Part shown: positions 15,959 to 62,305 of the stretch, in pieces
Position numbering within the stretch: position 1 is the stretch's first letter
Layout: each line of letters begins with the position of its first letter
Virus record (IMG/VR): IMGVR_UViG_3300047678_000160
Location: 31,729-95,728 of that record
Length of the DNA: 64,000 nt
Source of the DNA: a virus
Strand: one strand, 5' to 3'
Made by a program: the position numbers and the translations under genes
Notes under the pieces: model-generated
Seen by the model: only the letters and a program-made list of their open reading frames with translations
The model's database searches: none
Told to the model about the DNA's origin: nothing

Positions 15959-16801
15959 ATGAACCGTGACCAGCTAAAATCTCGTATCAAAGAGTTAGTC
16001 TTAAAAGAAGTTTCCAGAAACAAAGCGTCCGTCATCACCGAAGCTGATGGTAAGAGACAGGCTTTGAAAGAGGTCATTCGTAAGCTCGTTCTTCAGGAAA
16101 TTACACGTAATGAGTTCGGAACTCCTGACGTTTCCACTGATGACGAAGGTGTTAAAGTCATTGAAAAAGTATTGGGTAAAGGGGCCGATGCTAAGAAGGT
16201 TGCCGGTTCTTCTAAAACCATTGGAGTTACCCCATCTCACACCGTTGAGCTATACAAACAAAGTAACGGTTGTTATGATGTTATTTCCGTAACAAATGGT
16301 GAAGACCGCAAGATTGCCAAGAATTTAAAATTGGAAGATGTTGGAGAGTTCTTGAAGAAGCACGCTGCTGATTCGGAGAAGACATATCAACAGAAGGCTT
16401 ATGACAAATCCAAAAAAGGATTTGGAATTGAAAAGAAAGAAGATAAGAAGAAAGACGAATCTGATAAGATGGAAGATGTCAAAGAAAAGACCCAAACCGA
16501 TATTTCTGACAAGACAGATGTTAAGGCTGAAGAGAAGGGTGAAAAAGATTTGGCTCCGGTTGATGATGATTTGTCAGCACAAATGGGTGGAGAACTTGTT
16601 GACAAGATTGAAAGAATCATGGACAAGGTGTTGAAGAGTAAGACCAAGGCAGAAACAAAAACCGCTTATTTGAAGACAGACAAAGACATGGAAAGCACTG
16701 ATAAGTTGGCTGTGAAGTTAGACGGAACAAACGCTATTAAAGGTGCTAAGTCTAAAGAGAAGATTACTCCAAAAGTTAAGGCAGTAGATTCAAAGAAGTG
16801 A
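15959..16801 (+). CDS. Hypothetical highly charged protein, probable virion/internal protein
   Basis: Two N-terminal repeats LKSRIKELVLKE / LKEVIRKLVLQE; preceded by TATTTAT motif. Confidence 0.5.
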   Translation: MNRDQLKSRIKELVLKEVSRNKASVITEADGKRQALKEVIRKLVLQEITRNEFGTPDVSTDDEGVKVIEKVLGKGADAKKVAGSSKTIGVTPSHTVELYKQSNGCYDVISVTNGEDRKIAKNLKLEDVGEFLKKHAADSEKTYQQKAYDKSKKGFGIEKKEDKKKDESDKMEDVKEKTQTDISDKTDVKAEEKGEKDLAPVDDDLSAQMGGELVDKIERIMDKVLKSKTKAETKTAYLKTDKDMESTDKLAVKLDGTNAIKGAKSKEKITPKVKAVDSKK

Positions 16802-17193
16802 AAAAATCGGAGCTAAAGTCTCTTATTTTGGAAGTGGTTTCAGAAATATACGGAAATCAGAAGCTCGATGATATTGATATTATCAAGGGTGAGACAATCA
16901 TTTCGGTCAATCCCAAAGAATATTCTAACGAAGTTTACTTGAATTGTGCAAGTGGAAATGTCTACGAGGTATTCGCCTACCCAGACGATAACGCAACGGC
17001 GGAAATTTCAGTAGTGAATTTGGATAAAATAATTGGAAAGCCCATCGTTTTTGCTCAACACTCCGACAAAGATTCTTATGGCGTTACTTTGATAATGAAA
17101 GCGGGTGACGGCAGCATTGGTGAAATTTTGATTAGTTGTGACCATAACGGATATTACGGATTTGAGTATGGTGTTACCAAAAGAGGTTCGTAG
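16798..17193 (+). CDS. Hypothetical protein
   Basis: N-terminal MKKSELKSLILEVVSE; C-terminal HNGYYG; ends with TAG. Confidence 0.55.
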   Translation: MKKSELKSLILEVVSEIYGNQKLDDIDIIKGETIISVNPKEYSNEVYLNCASGNVYEVFAYPDDNATAEISVVNLDKIIGKPIVFAQHSDKDSYGVTLIMKAGDGSIGEILISCDHNGYYGFEYGVTKRGS

Positions 17194-17257
17194 ACCGCAA
17201 GAAAATTCTTGACATTTGATAAAAAAGACTACATCGTTGGTCTATTAAATCAATTTC

Positions 17258-17331
17258 GCGTTTGTAGCTCAATGGCTGAGCAGTCGTCTCTAAAACGATG
17301 GATGTGGGTTCGAGTCCCATCTGACGCACCA
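17258..17331 (+). tRNA. Amber suppressor tRNA (anticodon CUA)
   Basis: Cloverleaf: acceptor GCGTTTG/CTGACGC, D-arm GCTC/GAGC, anticodon stem GTCGT/ACGAT with loop CT-CTA-AA (CTA at 17290-17292), T-arm GTGGG-TTCGAGT-CCCAT, encoded ACCA. Confidence 0.88.
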
Positions 17332-17338
17332 CTTTCTA

Positions 17339-17536
17339 ATGAAGCATAAAGCAACAATCTCAATCGCCACTCCGGAGACGGACGCCTTACTCTCCAAAGA
17401 GTATGGGGAAAAAGGACATGAGGCGAAGCTTGCTGGTAAGACAAGGGAAGATTGCCCTTATTCCGGCGGCAAGGTAAGAGATTGGTGGTTAGAAGGTTTT
17501 GATGGTATTTCTATGAACACAAATACAAATAGTTAG
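17339..17536 (+). CDS. Ribosome modulation factor (Rmf/CrpP-fold)-like protein
   Basis: EKGHEAKLAGKTREDCPY....RDWWLEGF matches the RMF pattern GYQAG..G.S...CPY....R..WL.GW; ends in TAG. Confidence 0.6.
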   Translation: MKHKATISIATPETDALLSKEYGEKGHEAKLAGKTREDCPYSGGKVRDWWLEGFDGISMNTNTNS

Positions 17537-17575
17537 GTTCCAGATACATAGGCTAAGGTAGATACTACCCTTAGA
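17513..17575 (+). pseudogene. Orphaned ancestral 5' end of pth2 with two in-frame TAG codons
   Basis: Translates MNTNTNS*VPDT*AKVDTTLR, matching MNT...DTTLR at the start of pth2 at 18513. Confidence 0.65.
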
Positions 17576-17641
17576 CGTGTTATAGTTGAAAATATTTTCA
17601 ACTTTTTTGCGTTTTCTATTTTCTATTCTATACTCATTGGT

Positions 17642-17797
17642 ATGGGAAGAAAATCACTAAATAAGACACACGAACAAATACTTGAAGAAAATCGTATTCG
17701 TTCTGCAAAATATTATTTGCTTCATAAAGAAGAAATAAACAAAAAGACAATGGATAGGTATAACAAGAGAAAGAAGTTGTCTCTTGAAAATCGCTGA
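17642..17797 (+). CDS. Small basic protein preceding a homing endonuclease (51 aa)
   Basis: MGRKSLNKTHEQILEENRIRSAKYYLLHKEEINKKTMDRY...; not in track. Confidence 0.5.
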   Translation: MGRKSLNKTHEQILEENRIRSAKYYLLHKEEINKKTMDRYNKRKKLSLENR

Positions 17798-17798
17798 T

Positions 17799-18516
17799 AT
17801 GAATGTGTATTACGCATATCTCTTGAAGCGGCCCGACGGAACTCCGTTTTATGTTGGAAAAGGAAAAGGTAGAAGATGTTATGCACACCCAAAACCTTGG
17901 CATCTAAAAAAGGATGAAAACAGATATAAAGTTCATATCATAGAAAAAATCCGTCGTGAGGGCCAAGAACCTATCATTGAAATACTACAAAATAATCTAT
18001 CTGAGGAAGACGCTTTTGTGCTTGAAATCCAACAAATAAAACTTTATGGAAGAACTATAAATGGCGGATTGTTATGCAATATGTCCGTCGGCGGTGAGGG
18101 ACAATCCGGATTTCACCACAGCGAAGAAACTAAAAGAAAACTTGCTATTATAAGCAAAGAAAATAATGGATTTGTCGGAAAGAAACACAACGAAGAAACT
18201 CTAAAATAATAGGTGATGTAAATAGAGGAAAAGTTCTTGACGATGGGTGGAGAAAGAAACTTAGTGATGCCACTAAAGGCAGACCTAAGAGTGAGGAGCA
18301 TAAGCTAAAAATAAAAAGCGCCCATCTAAATAGAGAAATACCAACGGAACAAAGACAGAGAATGGTAGATATGAATAAATCAAGAATCGGAAAATCTCTG
18401 AGCAAGGAGCACGGAGAGAAACTCAGCAAGGCTACAAAGGGCGTTTCAAGAGGACCGATGAAGCCAGAAACTAAAGAAAAATACGACTTGCCAGAATAAA
18501 AACATACAAAATATGA
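17799..18516 (+). mobile_element. GIY-YIG homing endonuclease with NUMOD3 repeats, frameshifted
   Basis: YAY...FYVGKG..RR, E..AF..E, GGEG.SG, HSEETKRK; further NUMOD3 repeats (KSEEHKLKI, ETKEKIR) continue after single-A losses near 18205 and 18480. Confidence 0.75.
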
Positions 18517-18890
18517 ACACAGAAAAAATGTAGGACACTACACTAAGAATATACACGCTTTTACGCACTGACCTAAATATGGGATGTGGTAAAAGTTGTA
18601 GTCAGGCGGGCCACGCTGCCCTCGGAACATTTTTACAGGCCCCAAAGGATTTACAAGACGCCTACCACAAAGACGGAATTGGAACGAAGGTATGCTTAGC
18701 ATGCCCCAATCTATCACAGCTTCAAACGGCATACGAAACTGCCGTTTCATTGGGTTTACCAGCCGATTACATCGTTGATTCGGGCTGCCCCGATTTCTTT
18801 GGTGGTCAACCCACTCCCACAGCCGTTGGCATTGGTCCTATTACGCGTGCTCAGGCCAAGTTCTTAAAGAAGTTTCAACTCCTCAAGTAA
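18513..18890 (+). CDS. pth2: Peptidyl-tRNA hydrolase Pth2 with in-frame amber codon at 18531
   Basis: LRIYTLLRTDLNMG.GK...QAGHA, KVCL, IVDSG, PTAVGIGP. The conserved first strand lies upstream of the track's Met (18579) and is separated from ATG 18513/18528 by TAG. Confidence 0.85.
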
Positions 18891-18891
18891 T

Positions 18892-19341
18892 ATGCAAACT
18901 ATAGTAGAACTAACCCAAATCGTGAACGAAGGTGAGAGTGCCCAAGATTCACTCAATTCAATCGCGGAGTCAATCTACGATTTTTATATGGCTGAGATTG
19001 AGCGTCAAAAGAAGGAATTGGAAATACAATATCCTTGGTTTGACGAACAGATTTCAGAACTGGAGCGTTGTAATTCTGGCTTTCATAAGTATCGATTCTC
19101 CGGAAACGACCTTATGCTCATTGGTCGGGATTACTTCCGAGGTGAAACCAACACAGAATATGATTCGCTTCCTATTGGCGTCTTTATTGACGACCAAGAT
19201 AAGCGTCATCAATTAATCAAGGATTTTGTCTCTTCTAAGTTCAATGCAATTCACGCACGAATGAAGAAGAAACAAGAACAAGAAAATGAACAAGAGCGTC
19301 AGCAATATGAGGCTCTCAAAGAAAAGTTTGAAACAAAATGA
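18892..19341 (+). CDS. Hypothetical protein
   Basis: 149-aa ORF; C-terminal ERQQYEALKEKFE is similar to the end of the next ORF. Confidence 0.6.
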   Translation: MQTIVELTQIVNEGESAQDSLNSIAESIYDFYMAEIERQKKELEIQYPWFDEQISELERCNSGFHKYRFSGNDLMLIGRDYFRGETNTEYDSLPIGVFIDDQDKRHQLIKDFVSSKFNAIHARMKKKQEQENEQERQQYEALKEKFETK

Positions 19342-19820
19342 ACTATACACTCATACTATACAAGTCAGATGGATGCAACACCTGTCGGGGTTGTGTCATG
19401 GAACAGTGGGGAAGTGATTTCTCACTTGATATGAACGTCAGCGAAGACGAAGCTATTGAAAGAATTTCCAATGCTTTTACTTCTCCATCTGAAGGCGGCT
19501 CTTACGAAGCAAATCTAATTTCTGTCCGTAATAGCGAGCAAGTCAAGCATCAGTTTGACCAATACAGTAGCTCAAGTTGGAAACAAGAAGTTGGTGGAGT
19601 TTCCACTTGGGGAACTGGAGATTATTGGGAAGACATTGATGAAAAAGAAGGAAAGAGACTCAACGACCTTATCAGAAAAAAGGTCAATGAAATCACAGAA
19701 AACAAACGTCTAGCCGAAGAAAAGGCCAAGACAGAACAGAAAGATAAAGAAGCAAAAGCGAAAGAAACTTATGAGCGCCAACAACTGGAAGCTCTCAAAC
19801 AAAAATACGAAATCAAATAA
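19338..19820 (+). CDS. Hypothetical protein
   Basis: 160-aa ORF; C-terminal ERQQLEALKQKYE. Confidence 0.6.
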   Translation: MNYTLILYKSDGCNTCRGCVMEQWGSDFSLDMNVSEDEAIERISNAFTSPSEGGSYEANLISVRNSEQVKHQFDQYSSSSWKQEVGGVSTWGTGDYWEDIDEKEGKRLNDLIRKKVNEITENKRLAEEKAKTEQKDKEAKAKETYERQQLEALKQKYEIK

Positions 19821-19824
19821 AGTT

Positions 19825-20259
19825 ATGAAAAACCTGGTATACAAAAACTACAATACATTCAACGAAGAGTTACTAAAGCTTGCGGAGACGCATTCTAAGG
19901 CTCTCACGTTTATCACTCGGGATGAGTATCTTATCTGGGTCAAACAATGGAAGGAGGACTATAAGACTGTCCTTCAGCTCCACACCATTGAGAAATTCAC
20001 CCGTCGTCGAGACCGTTCTACTCTTCAAGAGAAGATTGACCGCTTTCAGAAGATTTTGGACAAAATTCCGAATCTTTCCGATGAGCAGAAGGCTCGTATC
20101 GAAGTTCTCAAGAAGGAATTTTTATCCCTTTGGGGTTTGAATTCCTACACATACTGCTCACATTATCTTCTCTGGCACATGTATGTTGTCAGAAAGGCCG
20201 GGAAGATTCGTGCCGGGCAGCAACGTGAACTAAGAATCAATCCGCCGATTACGGCTTAA
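19825..20259 (+). CDS. Hypothetical protein
   Basis: Likely start MKNLVYK; open frame up to the terminator. Confidence 0.6.
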   Translation: MKNLVYKNYNTFNEELLKLAETHSKALTFITRDEYLIWVKQWKEDYKTVLQLHTIEKFTRRRDRSTLQEKIDRFQKILDKIPNLSDEQKARIEVLKKEFLSLWGLNSYTYCSHYLLWHMYVVRKAGKIRAGQQRELRINPPITA

Positions 20260-38953: not shown

Positions 38954-39294
38954 TTAGAATTGTAAACAAATACAGACACGAACCGACCCCCAATGACGTT
39001 TATATTGGTCGGGGCTCTCCATTTGGTAATCCATACGCTTTTAAGCCAGGAACCAAAGCAGAATTCATTGTAGCCACAAGAGAAGAGGCAATAGAAAAAT
39101 ATAGAGAACACTTTCACAGGAAACGAATGAACGATGTGTTTATGTATGAGATGCTACAGATAATGTTTGCTGCTCATGTCCGTGGAGAAGATATTAATTT
39201 AGTTTGTTATTGCTCACCAGCTCCTTGTCATGGACAAGTTATTAAAGAATATCTCGACGAAAGATTATCCATTATAGATAAAAATCTTGAGTAA
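38950..39294 (+). CDS. DUF4326 family protein
   Basis: VYIGRGSPFGNPY, REEAIEKY, LVCYCSPAPCHG. Confidence 0.85.
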   Translation: MIRIVNKYRHEPTPNDVYIGRGSPFGNPYAFKPGTKAEFIVATREEAIEKYREHFHRKRMNDVFMYEMLQIMFAAHVRGEDINLVCYCSPAPCHGQVIKEYLDERLSIIDKNLE

Positions 39295-39853
39295 TGAAAA
39301 AAGGTATTTGCGGATTAAAATGCAATATCACTGGAAAATGGTATATTGGCCAAAGCGTAAATATAGAAAGTGCTTGGAACAAAAGATATAAAACTCTTCA
39401 CTGCAAGAAGTAGACAAAAATATACAATGCTCTACTGAAGTATGGGTTTGATAATTTCGACAAAATTATATTGGAAGAGTGTGATGAAGACCAAATTAAC
39501 GATAGGGAAATATATTGGATAAAAATATATAATTCGGTAAAAGATGGATACAATATTCGACCCGGCGGAGGAGGCTTTACGGAAAATCAACGAAAAAATT
39601 TATCTATAGCTAATACTGGCCAAGTATGTTCTCCAGAACAAAGAGAAAAAATATCTAAATCTTGGATAAAACGTAGACTGGTTGGAGTATCGGATGAAAC
39701 TAAAAAACGCATGTCTTTGTCAAAACTAGACAGAAAATTGCAATTGCATGTAGTGGAAAAAAACATTCTATAGAAACTAAGCACAAAATGTCAGAATCAA
39801 GGAAGAGTTATTTTAAAAGAAAAAAATTGACAAAAATAGAATCTAACATATAG
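39294..39853 (+). pseudogene. Decayed GIY-YIG homing endonuclease (in-frame TAG at 39411, frameshift near 39740)
   Basis: GIC...KWYIGQS, YNALLKYGFDNF, E..WI...NS..DGYN..GG; NUMOD3 HSIETKHKMS in a shifted frame. Confidence 0.7.
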
Positions 39854-60070: not shown

Positions 60071-60147
60071 TTAGCTGTTCGGCTAGTGGCAGGCCAGCCC
60101 CCCCCTAAAGGGGCGCGCATAGGTTCGATTCCTATACAGATTAACCG
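60071..60147 (+). tRNA. Degenerate tRNA-like element with 8-nt anticodon loop CCCCTAAA
   Basis: D-arm GGC/GCC, stem GCCCC/GGGGC, T-arm ATAGG-TTCGATT-CCTAT; imperfect acceptor, no CCA. Confidence 0.45.
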
Positions 60148-62221: not shown

Positions 62222-62305
62222 GGGGGGATAGCTCAGTAGATTAGAGCACCATCAAGTAGCAATACACGATGGAGGTCGAAGGTTTAAATCCTTCTCCCCC
62301 CACCA
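62222..62305 (+). ncRNA. tRNA-like RNA lacking a canonical anticodon loop
   Basis: Perfect acceptor GGGGGGA/TCCCCCC plus ACCA, D- and T-arms; anticodon arm CCATC-AA-GTA-GCAA-TAC-AC-GATGG. Confidence 0.65.

What the first reader, a model, noticed from the sequence alone, without database searches (positions are those of the whole stretch)
17258..18890. Amber-suppressor tRNA with an amber-gated peptidyl-tRNA hydrolase (Pth2) and an RMF-like gene
Seen: a stand-alone tRNA with anticodon CUA (17258-17331), far from the main array, is followed by an RMF-like ORF and then pth2. The conserved first strand of Pth2 (LRIYTLLRTDL) can only be reached from ATG 18513/18528 by reading through TAG at 18531 (MNTEKM*DTTLRIY). 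An older copy of the same 5' end survives upstream of an inserted endonuclease (17513-17575: MNTNTNS*VPDT*AKVDTTLR) with two in-frame TAGs. All three TAGs are followed by G. Amber codons in two diverged copies argue against a random nonsense mutation. Core genes in the window have no internal TAG, and TAG is rarely used as a stop, so this is not whole-genome code 15 here. Established: Pth2 recycles peptidyl-tRNA, RMF drives ribosome hibernation, and suppressor tRNAs occur in many large phages. Inference: Pth2 synthesis depends on the suppressor out-competing release factor 1, which makes it a translational switch or feedback loop. The old 5' end is in frame with the RMF-like ORF, so the ancestral locus could have made an RMF-Pth2 read-through fusion.
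Basis: partly seen in the sequence, partly recalled or inferred. Interest (0 to 1): 0.9.

Follow-up and report, generated by a model that had tools for sequence, protein, structure and literature searches.

The report
Stop-codon-gated phage Pth2 with suppressor tRNA
A large standard-code phage carries a tRNA that reads the stop codon UAG and a tRNA-recycling enzyme gene (Pth2) that can be made whole only by reading through a UAG at its 7th codon. Dozens of distant phages keep this pairing, with stop codon and anticodon changing together, so it looks like a real translational switch that I found described in no paper.

Summary
tRNA-CUA (17258-17331) is a solid tRNA. pth2 (18513-18890) has TAG at codon 7, ahead of a first beta-strand that every Pth2 needs, and no ATG/GTG/TTG lies between them. 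An old pth2 5' end (17513-17575, two TAGs) sits upstream of a decayed GIY-YIG homing endonuclease.

In 58 non-redundant relatives of this Pth2 clade, 45 have start, 1-9 codons, stop, then the strand. The gated strand shows a coding pattern of substitutions. Purines follow the stop in 43 of 45. The stop type matches a nearby suppressor in 32 of 45, with no mismatch: TAG/CUA, TAA/UUA, and TGA/UCA in Atu_ph07. Two further TGA loci (L021, L028) carry tRNA-UCA but fall outside the strict set. Seventeen ungated Pth2 loci have no suppressor.

The window and the related loci use the standard code, so this is one gated gene, not recoding.

Best reading: full-length Pth2 is made only when the phage suppressor decodes the gate. 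Why the two are coupled is inferred, not shown.

The RMF-like gene belongs to the Rmf/CrpP family and is absent from all related loci, so an ancestral RMF-Pth2 fusion is not supported. The second tRNA-CUA, in the array, is doubtful.

This scan has noted the same module many times on other DNA. I found no paper describing it. Nothing here is experimental.

The parts
17258..17331 (+). Amber-suppressor-type tRNA: anticodon CUA, loop CUCUAAA, encoded CCA. It is the 'key' of the module.
   Evidence: ARAGORN. Rfam RF00005 scores 61.8 bits. It is 81-84% identical to the tRNA-CUA that abuts pth2 in L003.
17339..17536 (+). Rmf/CrpP-family small ORF of 65 aa. It has no stop of its own. It runs in frame into the old pth2 leader and ends at that leader's first TAG. 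It is specific to this window.
   Evidence: Pfam RMF 28.3 against 27.9. NF041886 31.6 against 28; RMF equivalog 33.8 against 40. No tblastn hit in any related locus. A word-based search of 5.8 billion proteins found only itself.
17513..17575 (+). Remnant of the resident pth2 5' end: ATG, 6 codons, TAG (17534), 4 codons, TAG (17549), then AKVDTTLR. It breaks off after the Arg codon of the first strand.
   Evidence: 89% DNA identity to the L003 leader, which reads MNTNTNS*VPDT*AQEVDTTLRLY and continues into an intact Pth2.
17576..18512 (+). Inserted mobile cassette. It holds a small basic ORF (17642-17797) and a GIY-YIG/NUMOD3 homing endonuclease (17799-18209, continuing in another frame at 18203-18499). 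The endonuclease has a one-base deletion relative to the intact L002 copy.
   Evidence: Pfam LEM-3_GIY-YIG 32.4 and NUMOD3 30.9; PHROG 314. It is 71% identical in protein to the intact endonuclease that sits between tRNA-CUA and pth2 in L002.
18513..18533 (+). Current pth2 leader and gate: ATG AAC ACA GAA AAA ATG TAG, followed by G.
   Evidence: Sequence. The A-rich context upstream of 18513 resembles that of other gene starts in this phage, which mostly lack a Shine-Dalgarno (SD) ribosome-binding motif. The ATGAACACA start is shared with the old leader.
18534..18890 (+). Pth2 body. The first beta-strand is at 18546-18566, the conserved structural Met at 18579, and the stop is TAA.
   Evidence: PF01981 61.4 bits. 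The AlphaFold2 model has mean confidence (pLDDT) 93, with strand 1 at residues 12-18. Foldseek finds Pth2 2zv3 and 3erj at TM-score 0.8-0.9. Solved Pth2 chains begin with this strand.
19771..20259 (+). Member of an uncharacterised gene family with the motif F..KeEYL.WR.eWK..Y. In 43 related loci an ORF of the cluster that holds this family lies close to pth2, nearly always downstream. It may be a third part of the module.
   Evidence: Cluster of ORFs found in 43 loci. The cluster appears to join two adjacent families. A profile of the cluster matches this ORF at E = 3.5e-08. No Pfam or NCBIfam match.

Best explanation
This is one copy of a conserved two-part phage module: a suppressor tRNA and a Pth2-family hydrolase gene whose reading frame is locked by the matching stop codon a few codons after its start.

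In this window translation starts at ATG 18513 and meets UAG at codon 7. Release factor 1 then ends a six-residue peptide, unless the phage tRNA-CUA (17258-17331) decodes the UAG. In that case the ribosome goes on through the first beta-strand and makes a complete, foldable 125-residue Pth2. Pth2 output therefore follows the activity of the phage's own suppressor.

Shown here by sequence and comparison: the tRNA, the gate, the need for the gated strand, coding selection on that strand, standard code elsewhere, and co-variation of stop type with anticodon across phages.

Inferred: that the tRNA is expressed, charged and able to compete with RF1. An internal gate codon aligns with Gln or Glu in relatives, so Gln is plausible but untested.

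Also inferred is the purpose of the coupling. I think it most likely keeps a tRNA-ester hydrolase in step with suppression, in one of two ways. It could clear the peptidyl-tRNA and stalled-ribosome by-products that read-through creates. Or it could act back on the suppressor as a homeostat. The early position of the gate makes the failure product a harmless short peptide.

The local peculiarity is a homing-endonuclease cassette that replaced the gene's 5' end. Both the old and the new leader keep their amber gate.
For: 1. Need for read-through. The Pfam PTH2 match starts at residue 13. The AlphaFold2 model (mean pLDDT 93) places strand 1 at residues 12-18 with pLDDT about 98. Solved Pth2 structures start with this strand, and the Met that gene callers take as the start is a conserved internal residue (DLxMGKGK) even in archaeal and human Pth2. 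No ATG, GTG or TTG lies between the TAG and that Met.

2. Recurrence. Of 58 non-redundant loci of this clade, 45 show a start codon, 1-9 codons, a stop, then the strand, with no ATG or GTG in between. Several of the others are double-gated.

3. Selection. Pairwise differences per site by codon position in the gated strand are 0.42/0.23/0.67. Downstream of the Met they are 0.26/0.20/0.64.

4. Lock and key. A matching suppressor lies within 4 kb in 32 of the 45 gated loci, none has a mismatched one, and none of 17 ungated canonical Pth2 loci has a suppressor (Fisher p = 1.6e-7). L020 has TAA twice with tRNA-UUA 115 nt upstream. L021 and L028 have TGA with tRNA-UCA. Agrobacterium phage Atu_ph07 gp256 has TGA, and its paper reports UCA as its only suppressor. 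On a quick tree these TAA and TGA cases nest inside TAG-gated clades with SH-aLRT support of 96-99 for the TGA cases and 87 for the TAA case, which needs at least 3 switches. L014, which has no suppressor within 4 kb, has its only tRNA-CUA 27 kb away.

5. Context. The base after the gate is a purine in 43 of 45 loci. From my own knowledge of the classic E. coli work of Bossi and of Miller and Albertini (1983), this context favours amber suppression.

6. Not recoding. ORF coverage rises from 0.86 to 0.93 when the gate stop is read through, and to 0.935 when the other stops are. Only two genes in 95.7 kb carry an internal TAG.

7. Two independently derived leaders in this window both carry TAG.

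8. ATG 18513 sits in the A-rich context typical of this phage's gene starts, most of which lack an SD motif.
Against: Nothing here is experimental. Expression, charging and the inserted residue are unknown, and raw reads could not be checked.

Thirteen of the 45 gated loci show no suppressor within 4 kb. One half-complete record has no tRNA at all.

In L021 and L028 the codon after TGA is GTG, so those two could start there. ATT follows the gate in 12 loci and could be a weak start. In this window ATA at 18549 could in principle give a product that keeps most of strand 1.

Two to three real genes of this phage still end in TAG, so a strong suppressor would have side effects.

The purpose of the coupling is not established by any result here.
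Confidence: 0.8

Rival explanations
1. The phage, or its late genes, uses a reassigned code (TAG as Gln, 'code 15'). Pth2 is then just one of many recoded genes, and the tRNA serves the whole genome.
For: A suppressor tRNA is present. TAG is rare as a terminator. The same contig encodes a release-factor homologue with a prfB-type UGA frameshift site, a pairing reported for TAG-recoded phages. A second gene, the endonuclease at 39294-39773, has an internal TAG.
Against: Code 11 gives a dense, unbroken gene map of the window. Reading TAG through gains no more ORF coverage than reading TAA or TGA through, both in the window and across the related loci. Only 2 genes in 95.7 kb have an internal TAG. 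The gate sits at a fixed place, codons 2-10, instead of being scattered. Only 41% of the genome is in hand, so distant recoded blocks cannot be excluded.
Confidence: 0.06
2. The short ORF before the stop is a regulatory leader peptide. Pth2 is translated separately, from a non-canonical start after the stop or from the internal Met, and the suppressor tRNA lies nearby for unrelated reasons.
For: ATT follows the stop in 12 loci and GTG in 2. The ATA at 18549 in this window would keep most of strand 1. Gene callers and GenBank annotators start the protein at the internal Met.
Against: This does not explain why the stop type changes together with the anticodon, with no mismatch. Most loci have no plausible start after the stop; the next codons are GTT, GAA, GAT, GAC and the like. 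Residues between the stop and the strand are also conserved in close relatives, for example DTTLR. The internal Met is a conserved structural residue of all Pth2. Starting there deletes a core strand.
Confidence: 0.08
3. pth2 here is a decaying gene. The TAG is a nonsense mutation linked to the damage done by the homing-endonuclease insertion, and the gene no longer functions.
For: The locus has plainly been rearranged. The endonuclease itself carries a frameshift, and the old 5' end is a dead remnant.
Against: The body of the gene is intact, with all family-invariant residues present. HEG-free relatives such as L003 and L004 have the same gate. Coding selection acts on the gated strand. The two leaders in this window come from different lineages and both carry TAG.
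Confidence: 0.03

Closest known systems
Stop-codon recoding in phages with phage-encoded suppressor tRNAs (TAG read as Gln 'code 15', TGA read as Trp 'code 4'; crAss-like, Lak and Agate phages; Borges et al., bioRxiv 10.1101/2021.08.26.457843)
   Same: A phage-encoded suppressor tRNA allows translation of phage genes that carry in-frame stops. TAG is depleted as a terminator. A release factor is sometimes co-encoded, and a release-factor homologue lies in this contig. The proposed role is regulation of expression.
   Different: There, many genes, mostly late and lysis genes, carry scattered in-frame stops, and the genome is called under another code. Here the genome uses the standard code and one small gene carries the stop at a fixed early position. 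That paper does not contain the word 'hydrolase'.
prfB (release factor 2) autoregulation through an early in-frame UGA
   Same: An early in-frame stop in a translation-factor gene makes the yield of full-length protein depend on the outcome of competition at that stop. It is a possible template for a feedback loop.
   Different: prfB bypasses the stop by a +1 frameshift, and the regulator is the gene's own product. Here the bypass would be decoding by a separate tRNA gene, and any feedback from Pth2 to the tRNA is hypothetical.
Archaeal and eukaryotic peptidyl-tRNA hydrolase Pth2 (PF01981; PDB 2zv3, 3erj, 1q7s)
   Same: Same fold (TM-score 0.8-0.9) and the same conserved GK...Q.GH and D.G motifs. 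The first strand sits at the very N-terminus.
   Different: This is a separate phage clade. Its score is far below the NCBIfam equivalog cut-offs (60.5 against 126). It has a short N-terminal leader holding a stop codon. Substrate and activity are untested.
Suppressor tRNAs reported in cultured jumbo phages (XacN1, Atu_ph07, RsoM2USA)
   Same: Standard-code jumbo phages with one or two suppressor tRNAs and an annotated peptidyl-tRNA hydrolase.
   Different: Those papers name no target for the suppressor, and XacN1's authors say so explicitly. Atu_ph07 gp256 is annotated from the internal Met, which leaves the TGA-gated leader and strand 1 unannotated. XacN1's own Pth2 is of the ungated canonical type.
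Free-standing GIY-YIG homing endonucleases of T4-like phages (Seg and Mob proteins; from my own knowledge, segB lies in the T4 tRNA gene cluster)
   Same: A free-standing GIY-YIG/NUMOD3 gene is inserted next to a tRNA gene. It moves with flanking DNA and leaves mosaic alleles.
   Different: Here the cassette carries or is followed by a replacement 5' end for the gene it interrupts, and the endonuclease itself is frameshifted.

Membership tests
Pth2 (PF01981) | Profile match above the curated cut-off over the whole domain | tested here: met
   61.4 bits against 23, covering profile positions 3-114 of 115, but only if TAG 18531 is read through.
Pth2 (PF01981) | Pth2 alpha/beta fold with the N-terminal strand in the core sheet | tested here: met
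   The AlphaFold2 model has mean pLDDT 93 and pTM 0.86, with strand 1 at residues 12-18. Foldseek matches 2zv3, 3erj, 1wn2 and 1q7s at TM-score 0.78-0.92.
Pth2 (PF01981) | Conserved motif residues (GK, Q.GH, D.G, G.GP) | tested here: met
   Q31, H34, K59, D89, G106, G108 and P109 are invariant, and K27 is nearly invariant, across 24 homologues. They align with the same motifs in 2zv3 and 1q7s.
Pth2 (PF01981) | Equivalog-level identity with cellular Pth2 (NCBIfam PRK04322, TIGR00283) | tested here: not met
   60.5 against 126 bits and 52.6 against 82 bits. It is a divergent phage clade, separate from canonical Pth2 on the tree.
Pth2 (PF01981) | Hydrolysis of peptidyl-tRNA | not testable with these tools
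   Needs an enzyme assay or complementation of pth(ts).
Suppressor tRNA | Cloverleaf tRNA with a 7-base anticodon loop, U33 and anticodon CUA | tested here: met
   Rfam scores 61.8 bits. ARAGORN finds CUA. The loop is C-U-CUA-A-A. There is one U-U mismatch in the acceptor stem.
Suppressor tRNA | Expressed, aminoacylated, and decodes UAG in vivo | not testable with these tools
The amino-acid identity could not be typed by similarity.
Stop-gated Pth2 / suppressor tRNA module (as defined by the comparison made here) | Start codon, 1-9 codons, then an in-frame stop before strand 1, with no canonical start in between | tested here: met
   In the window, ATG 18513 (or 18528) is followed by TAG 18531. 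The same holds in 45 of 58 relatives.
Stop-gated Pth2 / suppressor tRNA module (as defined by the comparison made here) | A suppressor tRNA on the same strand whose anticodon matches the gate stop | tested here: met
   In the window, tRNA-CUA lies 1.25 kb upstream on the + strand. Relatives show 32 matches and 0 mismatches.
TAG-recoded phage (code 15) | In-frame TAGs in many conserved genes, and better gene calls under code 15 than under code 11 | tested here: not met
RMF (ribosome modulation factor) | Match at equivalog level | tested here: not met
   NF011162 scores 33.8 against 40. The Rmf/CrpP subfamily (31.6 against 28) and Pfam RMF (28.3 against 27.9) are passed, the latter only just.
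GIY-YIG homing endonuclease | GIY-YIG catalytic domain plus NUMOD3 DNA-binding repeats in one intact ORF | tested here: not met
   The domains are present. The ORF is broken by a one-base deletion near 18200 relative to the intact L002 copy.
Group I intron carrying the endonuclease | Match to an Rfam group I intron model | tested here: not met
   No intron hit at E up to 10 in 17000-19000. The duplicated start codon also argues for a free-standing cassette.

The most novel reading that the evidence does not exclude
The tRNA and Pth2 form a closed homeostat. Suppressor activity opens the gate, and the Pth2-like hydrolase then acts back on the suppressor, by hydrolysing its acylated or peptidyl form or by clearing the ribosome stalls that it causes. 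This would hold read-through at a set level in a standard-code cell. Double gates (two stops, as in the old leader here and in L003, L005, L012 and L020) would sharpen the response. The uncharacterised downstream gene family (19771-20259 here) would be a third component. If so, this would be a natural, portable, stop-codon-agnostic translational circuit, and the first defined role for suppressor tRNAs in standard-code jumbo phages.
Probability: 0.25. Interest if true: 0.9.

Novelty: new variant of a known kind. Interest (0 to 1): 0.78.

Why it matters
Suppressor tRNAs turn up in many standard-code jumbo phages, and their targets have been an open question. The XacN1 paper states that none could be identified. 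This module gives a specific, conserved target that can be tested. It also shows that GenBank records start these Pth2 genes about 20 codons too late (Atu_ph07 gp256 and Phosso).

If the gate works as read, it is a natural gene-specific stop-codon switch that has been rebuilt for all three stop codons. That bears on how phages move towards recoded genetic codes, on phage control of host translation, and on the design of orthogonal read-through switches.

The window adds a natural replicate. A homing-endonuclease event replaced the gene's 5' end, and the replacement kept the gate.

Tried and rejected
- Group I intron. The splice-like boundaries (T before TAG 17534, G ending the TAG at 18531-18533) suggested one, but Rfam gives no intron hit in 17000-19000 at E up to 10, and the duplicated ATGAACACA start fits a free-standing cassette.
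- Close relatives in viral contigs, searched with the single protein: none. The profile search worked.
- The metagenome-contig scan gave only distant or partial loci.
- Typing the suppressor's amino acid by nearest typed tRNA was uninformative, with votes spread over Arg, Thr, Val and others.
- Promoter and terminator scan of 16700-19400: counts were no higher than in shuffles.
- RNA structure after the gate: z = -2.3 for 18500-18610 and -0.9 for the old leader. This is too weak to claim a read-through stimulator, and it was not tested by covariation.
- Release factor as an obligate partner: an RF-1 domain was found in only 2 of 5 other gated-Pth2 phage records, and is absent from a 100%-complete one.
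- Other N-terminally gated genes in the 95.7-kb contig: none. Long frames open across a TAG in the first 31 kb look like shadows of genes on the other strand.
- Literature: six full-text searches and five papers read. None links a suppressor tRNA to an in-frame stop in a Pth gene.
Full report
**What is in the window.** The window is the last 64 kb of a 95.7-kb IMG/VR phage contig. CheckV estimates it as 41% complete, so the phage is a jumbo phage of roughly 230 kb. G+C is 40%.

Genes are densely packed on the + strand and read cleanly under code 11. Only 7 of 50 gene starts have a Shine-Dalgarno (SD)-like ribosome-binding motif. Starts lie in A-rich sequence instead.

From 17258 to 18890 the order is as follows:
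- tRNA-CUA.
- A 65-aa Rmf/CrpP-family ORF.
- A 63-bp remnant of a pth2 5' end.
- A 0.9-kb cassette holding a small ORF and a frameshifted GIY-YIG/NUMOD3 homing endonuclease.
- A complete pth2 whose 7th codon is TAG.
This rests.

**Checking the observation.** The tRNA is sound. Rfam scores it at 61.8 bits, the loop is C-U-CUA-A-A, and the CCA is encoded.

ARAGORN calls a second tRNA-CUA in the main array (60071-60146). It is not found by Rfam at gathering score and folds with an 8-base loop. I treat the stand-alone tRNA as the only convincing suppressor in the contig.

Pth2 is confirmed by Pfam (61.4 bits). A confident model (mean pLDDT 93) superposes on solved Pth2 structures at TM-score 0.8-0.9. 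The first strand, residues 12-18 (18546-18566), lies between TAG 18531 and the next ATG (18579), with no ATG, GTG or TTG in between.

Solved archaeal and human Pth2 chains begin with this strand. They also carry the same Met inside the DLxMGKGK motif. The ATG at 18579 that gene callers use is therefore a conserved internal residue and not evidence of a start.

**Is the TAG more than a nonsense mutation?** A profile search of IMG/VR gave 79 loci. About 60 belong to one phage clade whose first strand reads LRLYAIVRxDLxM. The rest are canonical Pth2 genes that open MKQVIVLRKDLNM.

In the phage clade, the frame upstream of the strand almost always contains a stop that follows an ATG by a few codons. 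I used a strict definition: a start 1-10 codons before the stop, and no ATG or GTG between the stop and the strand. By it, 45 of 58 non-redundant loci are gated. Among the remaining 13 are double-gated genes (L003, L005, L012) and ambiguous cases.

The twelve codons of the gated strand differ between loci in the pattern of coding sequence. Per-site differences by codon position are 0.42/0.23/0.67. For twelve codons after the Met they are 0.26/0.20/0.64. So the stretch that cannot be reached without read-through is under protein-level selection.

**Lock and key.** ARAGORN on the loci finds a suppressor-type tRNA within 4 kb in 32 of the 45 gated loci. It is always on the same strand, usually upstream and sometimes only 20-60 nt away. 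Its anticodon always matches the gate.

None of 17 ungated canonical Pth2 loci has a suppressor (Fisher p = 1.6e-7).

Cases with a stop other than TAG:

| Locus | Gate | Suppressor |
|---|---|---|
| L020 | two TAA | tRNA-UUA, 115 nt upstream |
| L021, L028 | TGA | tRNA-UCA |
| L030 (cultured Agrobacterium phage Atu_ph07) | TGA in gp256 | the paper reports one suppressor, anticodon UCA |

On a quick maximum-likelihood tree these TAA and TGA cases nest within TAG-gated clades. SH-aLRT support is 96-99 for the TGA cases and 87 for the TAA case. That needs at least three switches of stop type.

I examined two loci that lack a suppressor within 4 kb. One record has its only tRNA-CUA 27 kb away. The other is a half-complete record with no tRNA at all.

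The base after the gate is a purine in 43 of 45 loci. The next codon is mostly ATT, GTT or GAA, and GTG only twice. This argues against re-initiation. It fits the 3' purine context that, from my own knowledge of classic E. coli work, favours amber suppression.

**Not a recoded genome.** Reading the gate stop through raises ORF coverage of the loci from 0.86 to 0.93. Reading either of the other stops through gives the same rise, to 0.935. The window itself behaves the same way.

In the whole 95.7-kb contig, only pth2 and one GIY-YIG endonuclease (39294-39773, TAG at 39411) have an internal TAG with homology running across it.

TAG is nearly absent as a terminator. The real cases are the gene just upstream of the tRNA, the RMF-like ORF and that endonuclease.

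**What is special here: a natural replicate.** The upstream remnant (17512-17571) is 89% identical in DNA to the leader of L003. That leader reads MNTNTNS*VPDT*AQEVDTTLRLY and continues into an intact Pth2. L003 also shares the two genes upstream and the gene downstream.

The endonuclease and the present pth2 are closest to L002. There an intact copy of the same endonuclease sits between tRNA-CUA and a gated pth2.

The locus is therefore a mosaic. An L002-like endonuclease-plus-pth2 segment was joined to an L003-like resident locus at the Arg codon of DTTLR. That left the resident leader behind as a remnant. Both leaders, from two lineages, carry amber gates: two in the old one, one in the new one.

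Rfam finds no group I intron.

**The RMF-like gene.** It passes the Rmf/CrpP subfamily model and, only just, Pfam RMF. It does not pass the RMF equivalog. It has no homologue in any related locus, and the word-based search of 5.8 billion proteins found none.

In L003 the tRNA abuts the leader directly. The ORF has no stop of its own and ends at the old leader's first TAG. Suppression would therefore extend it by 87 residues into the cassette. I read it as a local insertion and not as part of the module. An ancestral RMF-Pth2 fusion has no comparative support.

**Mechanism.** The steps shown are the anatomy, the need for read-through, selection, the standard code and the co-variation.

The steps inferred are these:
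- The tRNA is made and charged.
- It competes with RF1 at codon 7.
- Pth2 yield therefore reports suppressor activity.

An internal gate codon at one conserved site in L002, L010, L026 and L039 aligns with Gln or Glu in relatives. P0030 reads MQDTTLRLY where the window reads M*DTTLRIY. Gln is plausible but untested.

The purpose of the dependency is open. A gate matched to one tRNA makes most sense if the level of the hydrolase must follow suppression. It might clear the drop-off and stalling products of read-through, or act back on the suppressor.

The early position keeps the failure product to a peptide of up to about ten residues. From established work on lambda bar minigenes, such very short ORFs tend to release peptidyl-tRNA, which is the substrate class of Pth enzymes. 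That is a lead, not a result.

**Context in the same genome.** Following earlier notes of this scan, I checked a gene 10.4 kb before the window. It is a class-I release-factor homologue with GGQ and an unusual P-K-N recognition loop. It is preceded by a 27-codon ORF ending GGGGGAGT-CTT-TGA, a prfB-type +1 frameshift cassette.

This suggests that the phage also intervenes in termination. But an RF-1 domain is present in only 2 of 5 other gated-Pth2 phage records, so it is not an obligate partner.

An uncharacterised family (motif F..KeEYL.WR.eWK..Y) belongs to an ORF cluster found close to pth2, nearly always downstream, in 43 loci. It is present here at 19771-20259.

**Known or new.** Six full-text searches and five papers found no description of a stop-gated Pth gene paired with a suppressor tRNA. 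The phage-recoding paper does not mention a hydrolase. The XacN1 paper states that no target of its CUA tRNAs could be identified. GenBank records of Atu_ph07 and Phosso start the gene at the internal Met.

This scan has noted the same module many times on other DNA, with similar readings. I re-derived the evidence independently here.

The principle is familiar from amber genetics and from recoded phages: a phage suppressor tRNA licensing a gene that carries an in-frame stop. I therefore class this as a new variant of a known kind, and of high interest.

**Limits.** The closest relatives' DNA and the raw reads could therefore not be examined. The tree is a quick search on 122 columns.

Noticed in passing
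window 39294-39773: A second GIY-YIG homing endonuclease has an in-frame TAG at 39411 (codon 40) and a TAG terminator. The TIGR01453 match (88 bits) runs across the TAG. It is either a pseudogene or a second amber-dependent gene.
   Followed up: partly
same contig, 10.4 kb before the window (L089:2125-2868 = G000:C1:21124-21867): A phage-encoded class-I release-factor homologue has GGQ, a P-K-N recognition loop and no domain 1. It is preceded by a 27-codon ORF ending GGGGGAGT-CTT-TGA, a prfB-type +1 frameshift cassette.
   Followed up: partly
window 19771-20259; L005-L057 downstream of pth2: An uncharacterised family (motif F..KeEYL.WR.eWK..Y) belongs to an ORF cluster that lies close to the gated pth2, nearly always downstream, in 43 loci. 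The cluster seems to join two adjacent families, which are fused in some loci. No Pfam or NCBIfam match.
   Followed up: partly
window 60071-60146: ARAGORN calls a second tRNA-CUA inside the tRNA array. Rfam does not find it at gathering score, and it folds with an 8-base anticodon loop and two acceptor-stem mismatches. It is probably not a working suppressor.
   Followed up: yes
window 16798-17193 and 17339-17536: The two genes flanking the tRNA-CUA both end in TAG, which is otherwise almost unused as a terminator. Read-through would extend the first by 52 residues across the tRNA gene, and the RMF-like ORF by 87 residues.
   Followed up: no
window 62222-62302: Rfam finds an 81-nt tRNA (54.6 bits) that ARAGORN did not list.
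   Followed up: no
L081 (NC_042013.1 Atu_ph07) 1120-1236; L083 (PV764938.1 Phosso) 1075-1236: In these GenBank records the Pth2 gene is annotated from the internal Met. This leaves about 190 nt unannotated, which hold the gated leader (TGA in Atu_ph07, TAG in Phosso) and the first strand.
   Followed up: yes
L051:5991-7313 and homologues in 14 loci: A polynucleotide-kinase/phosphatase-type gene (AAA_33 plus Metallophos, a tRNA-repair type) recurs within 1-4 kb of the gated pth2.
   Followed up: no
whole window: Only 7 of 50 gene starts have an SD-like motif, and starts lie in A-rich sequence. This suggests a host with SD-independent initiation, such as Bacteroidota.
   Followed up: partly
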